DNA of 24,668 bases, taken from contig JAEOTE010000134.1 of the NCBI GenBank assembly GCA_016839945.1, forward strand, positions 1-24,668, written 5' to 3'. The translations under genes and the position numbers were made by a program. A model generated the notes under the pieces. The model was given only the letters and a program-made list of their open reading frames with translations, was not told the DNA's origin and ran no database searches. The DNA is from Candidatus Heimdallarchaeota archaeon. Lineage in GTDB: Archaea > Asgardarchaeota > Heimdallarchaeia > Heimdallarchaeales > Heimdallarchaeaceae. Shown here piece by piece: positions 3,577 to 5,123 of the stretch. Each line of letters begins with the position of its first letter. Within the stretch, counting starts at the first letter, position 1.

Positions 3577-3623
3577 TTATGATATACCATTTACTTATGA
3601 TATACCGTGTTTTTGATATATCA
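3577..3623. promoter_or_regulatory. Three copies of a TGATATA(C/T)C quasi-palindromic box, putative transcription factor sites
   Basis: TTATGATATACC at 3577-3588 and 3595-3606 (exact 12-bp direct repeat, 18-bp period); perfect palindrome TGATATATCA at 3614-3623. Confidence 0.65.
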
Positions 3624-3625
3624 TT

Positions 3626-3640
3626 GAAAATATTTAAAAT
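3626..3640 (+). promoter_or_regulatory. Putative BRE/TATA promoter of the actin-like gene
   Basis: GAAAA followed by TATTTAAAAT, TATA about 25-30 nt upstream of ATG 3663, as expected for a leaderless or short-leader archaeal transcript. Confidence 0.55.
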
Positions 3641-3662: not shown

Positions 3663-5123
3663 ATGTCAAAATCTGCACAGAACAGCAAACCAAAACATTG
3701 TGGCAAAACCATGATGAGAATTTATATTAGAAAGGGTACTGAGAAAAGAAAGTGGATACCTATTGGTTATTATTGTAATGAATGTTCAAAAATGATAAAA
3801 GATTCAGATTTGATTCCAACACGAAAAATAGATGAGATTCAAGGAGCAGGACCCAAGCTAGTAAATAAAGTTTCAAAACATCAAATTGTTGTTTTAGATT
3901 TAGGATACAGTCTTACCAAAGTTGGTTTTTCTGGAGAAAAAGAACCCAGATTCATTTTTGATACAGCCATATATCTTTCAGAAACAGGTGAATCATTTAT
4001 CCAAAAATCAGATGTAATTGAAAGAAAGAGGATCATTAATTTACGAAAGCAGATTTTCGAAACTAAAGAGAATATGGAAATTAATAAAGATAATTTAGAA
4101 ATCTTCCTTATTCATGTTTTTGAAGCATTAGAAATTAGTCCAACAAACAAATCAATCCTTGTTATAGAAAAGCATCACCAAAGTAATTATGCAGACTACT
4201 TCAAAGGAAGAATTGATGTAATCAATAACTGCACATTACCAGAAAAAACAAAAGAATCCCTAAAAGCTGAAAAAAGAGTAGACTTTGTTGATTATTCCAA
4301 AAATACAATTTCTCATCGAAGAACTATAGCTTCGATGTTATTTGATCAATTTAATATTGCAAAAGTGTATTTTTCAAATGGTGAACTACTTACTCTTTAC
4401 TCAAAAAAACATGTAACAGGTGTTGTTGTGAATATCGGTGCATTGACTTCACGCATTGTTCCAATCTATGAAGGATATATTATTTCCCATAGTGTGAGTG
4501 TTCGAGATTATGGAGGGTATGATGTAGAAGAACAGCTCTATAATTACATTCAAGAAAAGGGAGTTGAGTTGAATGATTCCAATTCTAGAGCTTACATTAT
4601 TCAAAAAAATATCCGATTAGCTTCTGAAGAACATCTCTATGTTTCACTAGATGAAAAAGAAGAACAAAACAAATGGTTAGAATCTGATAAGTTGATAAGA
4701 TCAATCAATATCATCAATGAAACTTACACAATGCTAGATGAAATTAGATTCAAAGCTCCTGAAATCCTTTTCAAGAACGAGCAACTGAGTATAATTAAGA
4801 AACAAGGAAGTTTAGCTGATGCAGTTATAGAAACTATTCAAAAATGCGATAAAGATTTAACTAAAGCATTGTATTCCAACATTATACTTTCTGGAGGAGG
4901 AACAATGTATGAAGGATTTAAAGAAAGGTTCATTCTGGATATGAAGAAGAAACTTCCTGAACACATTGTTATTAATGTTACAGCTGATTCTGATCGATTA
5001 ATCTCTACATGGATTGGGGGATCAATACTTGCAGGATTGAAAGTTTTTGAAGAAAAAGGATTATGGGTATCTAAAGCTGAATATAATGAAAAAGGTTCAT
5101 CAGCCGTAGATAGATGTATCTAG
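3663..5123 (+). CDS. Divergent actin-related protein with N-terminal zinc ribbon and HhH-like motif
   Basis: Actin signatures: VVLDLGYSLTKVGFSGEKEP, VPIYEGY, RFKAPEILF, KCDKDL..LYSNIILSGG.TMY, STWIGGSILA, WVSKAEYNE.G...V.RC. Start moved from 3546 to 3663 because the upstream stretch contains the repeat boxes and TATA. Confidence 0.93.
   Translation: MSKSAQNSKPKHCGKTMMRIYIRKGTEKRKWIPIGYYCNECSKMIKDSDLIPTRKIDEIQGAGPKLVNKVSKHQIVVLDLGYSLTKVGFSGEKEPRFIFDTAIYLSETGESFIQKSDVIERKRIINLRKQIFETKENMEINKDNLEIFLIHVFEALEISPTNKSILVIEKHHQSNYADYFKGRIDVINNCTLPEKTKESLKAEKRVDFVDYSKNTISHRRTIASMLFDQFNIAKVYFSNGELLTLYSKKHVTGVVVNIGALTSRIVPIYEGYIISHSVSVRDYGGYDVEEQLYNYIQEKGVELNDSNSRAYIIQKNIRLASEEHLYVSLDEKEEQNKWLESDKLIRSINIINETYTMLDEIRFKAPEILFKNEQLSIIKKQGSLADAVIETIQKCDKDLTKALYSNIILSGGGTMYEGFKERFILDMKKKLPEHIVINVTADSDRLISTWIGGSILAGLKVFEEKGLWVSKAEYNEKGSSAVDRCI

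What the first reader, a model, noticed from the sequence alone, without database searches (positions are those of the whole stretch)
3663..3872. Actin fused to a zinc ribbon and a helix-hairpin-helix-like motif: candidate nucleic-acid-associated Asgard actin-related protein
Seen: about 73 aa precede the first actin strand, in frame. They contain a basic module KHCGKTMMRIYIRK...WIPIGYYCNEC (H-C-x24-C-x2-C, 3696-3785) and then IDEIQGAGPKLVNKV (3828-3872), which fits the HhH consensus (l..IpGhGpk.a..l). Known: canonical actins begin a few residues before the phosphate-1 loop, and both motif types often contact DNA; eukaryotic nuclear ARPs such as Arp8 carry N-terminal extensions and work on chromatin. 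Inference: a non-cytoskeletal, possibly DNA-linked actin paralog. I do not recognise this architecture from described Asgard actins.
Basis: partly seen in the sequence, partly recalled or inferred. Interest (0 to 1): 0.88.

Follow-up and report, generated by a model that had tools for sequence, protein, structure and literature searches.

The report
Zinc-ribbon actin relative with own operator
A Heimdall-group archaeal gene encodes a divergent actin relative whose strongly conserved zinc-ribbon-like head always comes with a unique triple DNA-box array in its own promoter. It therefore probably binds DNA and controls itself; the proposed helix-hairpin-helix motif is not real.

Summary
The ORF (3663-5123, 486 aa) is real and has more than 30 full-length orthologs.

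**Zinc-ribbon module.** The H-C-x24-C-x2-C module (residues 9-46) is the most conserved part of the protein. It folds confidently as a small beta-ribbon. It has stand-alone relatives with a canonical CxxC first knuckle. No listed Pfam, PDB or PHROGs family matches it significantly.

**HhH motif.** The 'HhH' stretch is a variable linker. GAGPK occurs only in this sequence, so that part of the finding is refuted.

**Actin core.** It is a divergent, monophyletic paralog with substituted catalytic residues and a 42-aa insert. It is confined to a few Heimdall-group genera and always carries the module.

**Promoter boxes (lead from earlier scan notes, tested here).**
- Every ortholog has GRTATAYC palindromic boxes just upstream of its TATA, three in two genera and two in the third, with fixed spacing.
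- In this 3.0-Mb genome the triple array occurs only here.
- Across 47 genomes of the order, paired boxes lie next to the gene in 21 of 21 carriers.
- Similar boxes precede a second gene family carrying the same module on an unrelated domain. Module-less homologs of that domain lack them.

**Best reading (about 0.55).** The zinc ribbon binds these boxes and the protein regulates its own gene. Direct binding is inferred, not shown.

Earlier scan windows on other genomes reported the same family.

The parts
3579..3590 (+). Box 1 of the operator-like array. The core GRTATAYC is at 3581-3588; the extended 12-mer is the best conserved box.
   Evidence: Core is 100% conserved in 12 species of the genus. 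The exact 12-mer occurs once in the 3.0-Mb genome.
3599..3606 (+). Box 2, 18 bp after box 1 (start to start).
   Evidence: The 18-bp spacing is kept in 11 of the 12 species of the genus (17 bp in L012). Column conservation is 0.85 against 0.54-0.60 in the spacers.
3615..3622 (+). Box 3, a perfect 8-bp palindrome, 16 bp after box 2.
   Evidence: This is the only cluster of 3 or more sites within 70 bp in the genome; 0.004 are expected.
3631..3640 (+). TATA-like element. Its centre is about 27 nt before ATG 3663, so the mRNA is probably leaderless.
   Evidence: Read from the sequence. A TTTAAWA element at the same distance from box 3 is conserved in orthologs. No transcript data are available.
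3663..5123 (+). Whole ORF of the zinc-ribbon actin-related protein (486 aa plus stop).
3687..3800 (+). Basic zinc-ribbon-like module, residues 9-46, net charge +9. Putative ligands are H12, C13, C38 and C41.
   Evidence: Conservation. AlphaFold2 alone gives pLDDT 87 with three strands. Relatives with a CxxC first knuckle.
3801..3878 (+). Variable linker of nearly constant length, residues 47-72. It contains the 'HhH-like' stretch 3828-3872.
   Evidence: Pairwise identity 0.30. pLDDT is about 50 at residues 51-60. No HhH family hit.
3879..5120 (+). Actin-family core, residues 73-486, with substituted catalytic and phosphate-loop residues.
   Evidence: Pfam PF00022, E 8e-64. Foldseek TM 0.85-0.89 normalised to actin length. 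Alignment A4.
4182..4307 (+). Family-specific insert of about 42 aa (S174-T215) at the position of actin's 108-112 loop. It has a conserved KGR..INN..LPEK motif.
   Evidence: Alignments A1 and A4.

Best explanation
The gene encodes a lineage-specific, ARP-like actin paralog of Heimdall-group Asgard archaea. Its N-terminal zinc-ribbon-like module is proposed to be a sequence-specific DNA-binding head.

**Proposed mechanism.** The module recognises the palindromic GRTATAYC boxes, which form a fixed-spacing triple array directly upstream of the BRE/TATA of the protein's own gene. Several protomers occupy the array, held together through the actin-fold bodies. Occupancy feeds back on transcription of the gene. 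The actin fold has lost actin's catalytic residues. It would then act as an oligomerisation or ligand-sensing body rather than as a filament-forming ATPase.

**Shown here.**
- The module is translated, strongly conserved and predicted to form a beta-ribbon.
- The boxes are conserved, have fixed spacing and are unique in the genome.
- The boxes are co-inherited with the module in two different fusion contexts.

**Inferred, not shown.** Zinc binding, direct contact between module and box, the sign of regulation, and what the actin body does besides.
For: **The module is real and under constraint.**
- It is the most conserved part of the protein: 0.69 mean pairwise identity against 0.50 for the core.
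- It is basic (+9) and rich in conserved aromatic residues.
- It folds alone at pLDDT 87 as a three-stranded ribbon.
- Relatives carry canonical CxxC...CxxC ligands.
- The nearest shapes, all weak, are zinc ribbons. Many of them contact nucleic acid: GRF fingers, TFIIS, NrdR, the Dof domain and the zinc beta-ribbon of large serine recombinases.

**The boxes are a conserved element.**
- All 15 orthologous promoters aligned have the boxes. Spacing is 18+16 bp in 11 of 12 species of the genus (17+16 in L012), 18+18 bp in a second genus and 17 bp in the sister family.
- A further ortholog promoter (L054) shows the same array.
- The boxes are conserved islands: 1.00, 0.85 and 0.86 against 0.54-0.60 in the spacers.

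**The array is unique.**
- The window has 6 sites against 1.16 expected.
- In the 3.0-Mb genome this is the only cluster of 3 or more sites within 70 bp.
- The two other close pairs lie inside coding sequence.
- The exact 12-mer occurs once, and near-matches are not enriched.

**Boxes and gene go together across 47 genomes of the order.**
- 20 of 21 genomes with the gene have the exact pair directly upstream of it. The 21st has one mismatch.
- Genomes without the gene have no array, including two closed ones.
- The single exception is a deletion remnant at the same locus.
- Flanking genes differ between genera, so the array travels with the gene.

**A second fusion family shows the same link.**
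- The same HC-type module is fused to an unrelated domain of about 380 aa. In one 4.6-kb contig the only two exact boxes lie within 120 nt upstream of that gene. A second contig has four boxes or near-boxes within 200 nt upstream.
- Three Asgard homologs of that domain lack the module and have no box in the 200 nt upstream that were examined. In two of them the whole ~4-kb locus has none.
Against: - No binding experiment, transcript data or protein-DNA model exists; the link rests on co-occurrence.
- The boxes lie within 140 nt of the module's coding sequence. A single recombination could have moved promoter and module together into the second family. The two contigs of that family are close relatives, so they count as one independent case.
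- A regulator whose only detectable target is its own gene has no obvious output, so the main cellular role is still missing.
- More distant stand-alone members of the module family show no such boxes nearby.
- The first zinc knuckle is atypical, with adjacent His-Cys, and ligand geometry could not be inspected.
- All structural matches of the module are weak: Z 3.3 or less, and Foldseek E above 1.
- A structure-prediction test gave weak support for the module docking on its own actin core. The score was 0.58 against 0.02 for the best of 3 controls. That mark was reached by 58 of 80 solved complexes and 2 of 110 mismatched pairs. At 0.60 or below, only 7 of the 80 solved complexes and both mismatches reached it. 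The runs agreed in at least 95% of contacts and the partner's pLDDT was at least 80. If the docking is real, the module may have a protein-contact role instead of, or besides, DNA binding.
Confidence: 0.55

Rival explanations
1. The boxes are bound by another, dedicated transcription factor. The zinc ribbon is a protein-contact element, for example an intramolecular clamp on the actin core or an adaptor to canonical actin or another partner.
For: - There is weak support for the module docking on its own core. The score was 0.58 against 0.02 for the best of 3 controls. That mark was reached by 58 of 80 solved complexes and 2 of 110 mismatched pairs. At 0.60 or below, only 7 of those 80 and both mismatches reached it. 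Contact agreement was at least 95% and partner pLDDT at least 80.
- The linker keeps its length while its sequence varies.
- The basic module (+9) faces an acidic core (-6).
- Zinc ribbons often mediate protein contacts; MqsA appears among the weak fold matches.
- Physical linkage of promoter and module could explain why they occur together in the second family.
Against: - The array is absent from all genomes that lack the gene and has no other copy in this genome. A separate factor would therefore have a single target and would have to be lost together with it.
- No conserved neighbouring gene could encode such a factor.
- The boxes are kept in the second fusion family, in organisms of different G+C content.
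Confidence: 0.25
2. The array is a centromere-like or anchoring site. The protein combines adaptor and actin-like motor in one chain, as if ParR and ParM were fused, or it forms a short oligomer templated by DNA. Autoregulation would then be a by-product, as in par operons.
For: - There is one array per genome, directly upstream of the actin-like gene. This mirrors parC upstream of parM (established knowledge of the ParMRC system).
- Box spacing of 16-18 bp corresponds to about 54-61 angstrom. That is close to the roughly 51-55 angstrom subunit repeat of actin-like protofilaments (inference from established filament geometry).
- The boxes are palindromic, which suggests two-fold symmetric binding.
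Against: - There are only three boxes.
- Catalytic residues and phosphate loops are not conserved, so ATP-driven dynamics are doubtful.
- The D-loop region is shortened.
- The gene has been lost in related species, including by a clean deletion, and is absent from two closed genomes of the family. That fits poorly with an essential segregation role.
- The box spacing is not in helical phase.
Confidence: 0.1
3. One reading: a chromatin-type ARP, similar to Arp8, that contacts nucleic acid non-specifically through a zinc ribbon plus a helix-hairpin-helix.
For: - The conserved module is basic and rich in aromatic residues.
- Weak fold matches include GRF fingers, which bind single-stranded DNA.
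Against: - The HhH stretch is unconserved and is not predicted as a hairpin of two helices.
- Nothing indicates a specific relationship to Arp4, Arp5, Arp6 or Arp8.
- The very high conservation of the module, together with a conserved specific DNA element, points to specific rather than general binding.
Confidence: 0.07

Closest known systems
Canonical Asgard actin (lokiactin; PDB 9wc4 'HC1 actin') and eukaryotic actin/Arp1
   Same: Same fold and family. Pfam Actin E 8e-64. The best PDB sequence matches are HC1 actin and Arp1, at E about 1e-48. Foldseek TM is 0.85-0.89 over actin. The C-terminal half and the GGGT adenine loop are conserved.
   Different: - Only about 30-37% identity.
- A separate long-branch clade.
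- Residues equivalent to Q137, D154 and H161, and the phosphate-loop residues, are replaced or variable.
- The D-loop region is shortened and there is a 42-aa insert.
- It has an N-terminal zinc-ribbon module and linker of 72 aa.
- This genome also keeps a canonical actin.
Eukaryotic nuclear ARPs with extensions (Arp8, Arp5, Arp4)
   Same: An actin fold with weakened ATPase features plus extra segments. The Arp8 N-terminal extension is reported to contact DNA (established knowledge; not tested here).
   Different: No orthology is indicated. The extension here is a folded metal-binding-type module, not a disordered basic tail. The inferred target is one specific site.
ROK-family repressors (Mlc, NagC)
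   Same: These work alike in concept. A DNA-binding head is fused to a domain of the actin-like ATPase (ASKHA) superfamily that has lost catalysis and serves for sensing and oligomerisation. They bind palindromic operators, often including their own (established knowledge).
   Different: ROK proteins use a winged helix-turn-helix and a sugar-kinase-type body. Here the head is a zinc ribbon and the body is a true actin-family domain. Not a member.
NrdR (zinc ribbon plus ATP-cone)
   Same: An N-terminal zinc ribbon is proposed as the DNA-binding head, fused to a nucleotide-binding body, with binding to tandem palindromic boxes in promoters. NrdR appears among the weak fold matches (Z 2.2).
   Different: The body domain and the box sequences are different. 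No sequence similarity was detected.
ParMRC partition loci and type Ia ParA
   Same: A repeat array sits in the promoter of a cytomotive-ATPase-fold gene and the locus autoregulates. Type Ia ParA carries its own N-terminal DNA-binding domain (established knowledge).
   Different: There is no separate adaptor gene. There are only three boxes. The context is chromosomal and metabolic. Catalytic residues are degenerate.
Zinc beta-ribbon of large serine recombinases (PF13408)
   Same: Similar small ribbon shape. ESM Atlas TM is 0.54-0.66 by query and Foldseek TM about 0.47. In recombinases that domain binds att DNA (established knowledge).
   Different: No significant sequence match. One stand-alone relative scored E 0.011, below the Pfam cut-off. 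The similarity is in shape only.

Membership tests
Actin family (Pfam PF00022) | Profile match above the curated cut-off over the whole domain | tested here: met
   216 bits against a cut-off of 27, residues 73-484 on profile positions 4-407 of 410.
Actin family (Pfam PF00022) | Four-subdomain actin fold | tested here: met
   AlphaFold2 mean pLDDT 85.7. Foldseek E about 1e-33 and TM 0.85-0.89 normalised to actin.
Catalytically competent actin | Residues equivalent to Q137, D154 and H161, and the S14/G15 and D157/G158 phosphate loops | tested here: not met
   Alignment A4 shows G for Q137, N (variable among orthologs) for D154 and an invariant R for H161. The loop positions vary between orthologs.
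Zinc ribbon | Two knuckles supplying four Cys/His ligands | tested here: inconclusive
   The second knuckle, CxxC, is invariant. The first has adjacent H12-C13 in place of CxxC. Family relatives have CxxC, xCC or xHC at the same place. Ligand geometry could not be inspected.
Zinc ribbon | Small three-stranded antiparallel sheet between the knuckles | tested here: met
   The module model has pLDDT 87 with strands at module positions 12-18, 24-31 and 38-40. The best shape matches are zinc ribbons, all weak.
Zinc ribbon | Bound zinc | not testable with these tools
   Needs metal analysis of purified protein.
Helix-hairpin-helix (HhH) | Conserved G-h-G hairpin between two helices | tested here: not met
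   The motif is absent even from the 93% identical ortholog. No Pfam HhH hit. The model shows one helix then coil at low confidence.
Eukaryotic nuclear ARPs (Arp4/5/6/8) | Orthology in an actin/ARP phylogeny | not tested
   No Arp2-10 sequences could be obtained. The limited tree only shows a separate clade outside canonical Asgard and eukaryotic actin plus Arp1.
Autoregulating DNA-binding protein | Conserved specific sites in its own promoter that co-occur with the DNA-binding domain | tested here: met
Autoregulating DNA-binding protein | Direct binding of the protein to those sites | not testable with these tools
   Needs EMSA, footprinting or DAP-seq.
ParMRC-type partition system | Separate adaptor gene and a multi-iteron centromere | tested here: not met
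   No conserved neighbouring gene across genera. Only three boxes.

The most novel reading that the evidence does not exclude
A true actin-family protein works as a DNA-anchored machine. Its zinc ribbons dock on three palindromic boxes spaced about one actin-subunit repeat apart. This templates a short actin-like oligomer on the chromosome. It would be either a one-polypeptide counterpart of a ParR/ParM centromere system or an actin-fold transcription switch at the BRE/TATA.
Probability: 0.12. Interest if true: 0.9.

Novelty: new variant of a known kind. Interest (0 to 1): 0.72.

Why it matters
Actins and ARPs are not known to carry a sequence-specific DNA-binding domain. If the zinc ribbon does read the box array, this would be an actin-family protein recruited as the body of a DNA-bound regulator or anchor, in the archaeal group closest to eukaryotes. 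That would show how readily the actin fold was re-used outside the cytoskeleton.

The hypothesis is directly testable, because a 45-bp target sequence is already defined.

Its weight for eukaryogenesis is limited. The family is confined to a few genera, has been lost repeatedly, and shows no specific link to eukaryotic nuclear ARPs.

Tried and rejected
- **HhH motif.** Rejected as an unconserved linker.
- **Family searches for the module.** None of these gave a significant family: Pfam, PHROGs, a PDB sequence profile and protein-atlas features.
- **Fold searches for the module.** Foldseek against PDB gave nothing at E 0.001 or below. VIA-align gave only Z 3.3 or less.
- **Conserved operon partner.** None found. 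Synteny (DUF1015, PanE-like, SerA-like, aminotransferase) holds only within the genus.
- **Unfused ortholog of the core.** None found. Genomes without the module have only canonical actin (37% identity) and another paralog (30%).
- **A wider regulon.** None found. Single boxes and near-matches of the 12-mer are not enriched. The two other close box pairs are coding.
- **Boxes near distant stand-alone module genes.** None found.
- **Literature.** Searches for a zinc-ribbon-actin fusion in Asgard archaea found no description.
- **Model coordinates.** They could not be inspected, so neither ligand geometry nor the docking surface could be examined.

Full report
**Observation.** The frame from ATG 3663 to the stop at 5121-5123 encodes 486 aa.
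- H12/C13 lie at 3696-3701 and C38/C41 at 3774-3785.
- The HhH-like stretch lies at 3828-3872.
- Pfam Actin matches residues 73-484 (E 8e-64), so about 72 residues precede the actin fold.

**Start of translation.** The frame is open back to 3546, but that stretch holds the promoter (see below).
- In 15 orthologous loci, 13 have a start codon exactly 20 codons before Y21. An in-frame stop often lies only 1-10 codons further upstream.
- Several orthologs have a GGTG-type motif just before that start.
- In this window a TATA-like element (3631-3640) is centred about 27 nt before ATG 3663, which suggests a leaderless mRNA (inference).
- Three database proteins begin at M17. In the one checked, the knuckle and an ATG 20 codons before Y21 are encoded in frame upstream. 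The same holds for P0125 in the second fusion family.
- M17 is also a conserved hydrophobic position in stand-alone relatives that start further upstream. Its invariance therefore does not argue for an internal start.

**Zinc-ribbon module: confirmed. HhH: refuted.** A search of 5.8 billion proteins returned about 35 full-length orthologs of roughly 487 aa at 45-93% identity. Where named, they are Heimdallarchaeota or Heimdallarchaeaceae 'actin family protein'.
- Residues 9-46 are the best conserved part. H12, C13, K15, M17, Y21-T26, R29, W31, G35, C38 and C41 are invariant in 32 sequences.
- Mean pairwise identity is 0.69 for the module, 0.50 for the core and 0.30 for the linker.
- The G-x-G-P-K of the supposed HhH occurs only in this sequence. 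Even the 93% identical ortholog differs.
- No HhH family matches. AlphaFold2 places one low-confidence helix there.

**What the module is.**
- Modelled alone from 32 sequences, it reaches pLDDT 87 as a three-stranded ribbon. C13 sits in a first hairpin and C38/C41 directly after the second strand.
- A profile search of 1.84 billion representatives found 33 proteins.
- Besides orthologs, these are 37-93-aa stand-alone proteins, tandem doubles, and a second fusion to an unrelated domain of about 380 aa.
- At the first knuckle these relatives have CxxC, xCC or xHC. The actin-fused form is therefore a zinc ribbon in which His next to the second Cys appears to replace the lost first Cys (inference).
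- No Pfam, PHROGs or PDB sequence family matches significantly.
- Shape matches are weak but consistent in theme. They include GRF fingers, TFIIS, Rpb9, NrdR, Dof, MqsA and the recombinase zinc beta-ribbon.
- Stand-alone members lie in runs of tiny unannotated genes that look like mobile elements.

**The actin body.**
- The model is a good actin fold.
- Against canonical Asgard and eukaryotic actins, the residues equivalent to Q137, D154 and H161 are replaced.
- The phosphate-loop positions vary among orthologs.
- The D-loop region is shorter. A conserved 42-aa insert sits at actin's 108-112 loop.
- The GGGT adenine loop and the C-terminal half are kept.
- A maximum-likelihood tree of 37 sequences gives a 100/100 clade for the family on a long stem. 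It lies outside canonical Asgard actins plus eukaryotic actin/Arp1 and apart from another Heimdall paralog. No Arp2-10 sequences were included.
- This genome also has a canonical actin, split over two contig ends.

**Distribution.** Among 400 genomes of the phylum, the module is found with confidence in only two families of one order.
- The window's own family has it in 19 of 30 genomes.
- Within that family, its own genus has 17 of 24, a second genus 2 of 2, and three other genera 0 of 4. The four include two closed genomes.
- The one genome of a sister family in the same order also has it.
- In every case the module is fused to the actin body.
- Genomes without it carry no unfused ortholog.
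- Neighbouring genes are conserved only within the genus. There is no operon partner.

**The promoter array.** Two earlier scan notes pointed to boxes in the promoter, and I tested this.
- The window has three GRTATAYC sites at 3581, 3599 and 3615. In total it has 6 sites against 1.16 expected.
- All 15 orthologous promoters aligned have the array, as does a further ortholog (L054). Start-to-start spacing is 18+16 bp in 11 of 12 species of the genus (17+16 in L012). It is 18+18 bp in the second genus, which has extra boxes near the start codon, and 17 bp in the sister family.
- The boxes are conserved islands (1.00, 0.85, 0.86) between variable spacers (0.54-0.60). A conserved TATA follows at a fixed distance.
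- In the 3.0-Mb genome this is the only cluster of three or more sites, against 0.004 expected. The two other close pairs are coding.
- The exact 12-mer of box 1 occurs once, and near-matches are not enriched.
- Across 47 genomes of the order, box pairs lie directly upstream of the gene in 20 of 21 carriers. The 21st has one mismatch.
- Non-carriers have no array. The exception is one genome where the array is followed almost at once by only the last 18 or so codons of the gene, a deletion remnant.

**Independent control.**
- The second fusion family has the same HC-type module with an unrelated body faintly resembling C39/BtrH-type domains. It also has the boxes just upstream of its gene.
- In one 4.6-kb contig, the only two exact sites are within 120 nt upstream. 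In another contig, four boxes or near-boxes are within 200 nt upstream, including a perfect 12-bp palindrome.
- Three Asgard homologs of that body lack the module and have no box in the 200 nt upstream that were examined. In two of them the whole ~4-kb locus has none.
- The boxes therefore follow the module, not the body.
- Caveat: promoter and module are physically adjacent and could have moved together. The two contigs are also close relatives.

**Mechanism.**
- The most economical reading is that the zinc ribbon reads the boxes and the protein regulates its own gene. The degenerate actin fold would serve as an oligomerisation or sensing body. This is comparable in logic to ROK repressors, NrdR or type Ia ParA (comparisons from established knowledge).
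- A prediction test gave weak support for the module docking on its own core, and that keeps a protein-contact role alive. The score was 0.58 against 0.02 for the best of 3 controls. That mark was reached by 58 of 80 solved complexes and 2 of 110 mismatched pairs. At 0.60 or below, only 7 of the 80 and both mismatches reached it. Contact agreement was at least 95% and partner pLDDT at least 80.
- A protein whose only visible DNA target is its own promoter must have a further role that is not yet seen. A centromere-like or DNA-templated assembly is a minority possibility.

**Novelty.**
- I found no description of this fusion in the searchable literature.
- Earlier windows of this scan, from other genomes, reported the same family. 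One follow-up reached a similar self-targeting reading.
- The evidence added here is the order-wide co-occurrence, the deletion remnant, and the second fusion family with its module-less controls.

Noticed in passing
G034:C159:6262-6303 (locus L048): A related species keeps the full triple box array, but the gene is deleted. The array is followed about 15 nt later by only the last 18 or so codons of the actin relative, then the PanE-like gene.
   Followed up: yes
L025:2601-3944 and L043:267-1550: A second protein family carries the same HC-type zinc-ribbon module. The module is fused to an unannotated domain of about 380 aa that faintly resembles C39/BtrH-type domains. A GyrI-like gene follows, and similar palindromic boxes lie upstream.
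   Followed up: partly
L024, L037, L040-L042, L045-L047: Stand-alone relatives of the module (37-93 aa) sit inside co-directional runs of tiny genes without any family. Some contigs have only 19-20% G+C. These look like viruses or mobile elements of archaea.
   Followed up: no
G000:C75:28-714 and G000:C64:18073-18585 (L001, L003): The genome's canonical actin gene is split across two contig ends, so the assembly breaks inside it.
   Followed up: no
G015:C1:970493-970822 (L036): A closed genome of the same family, which lacks the zinc-ribbon actin, holds an actin-family fragment. It is 40% identical to residues 355-470 and is interrupted by two TAA stops, so it is probably a decayed paralog.
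   Followed up: partly
window 4182-4307: The 42-aa insert in the actin body has its own conserved motif (KGR..INN..LPEK) across all orthologs. It is a functional element rather than a loose loop.
   Followed up: no
proteins P0009, P0010, P0036, P0125: Public gene calls start these proteins at the internal Met, which cuts off the first zinc knuckle. In the two checked at DNA level, the knuckle and an upstream ATG are in frame.
   Followed up: partly
L016 and L020 (second genus), about -42 and -8 from the start codon: Extra boxes lie downstream of the TATA, one overlapping the start codon. This suggests repression in that genus in addition to the upstream array.
   Followed up: no
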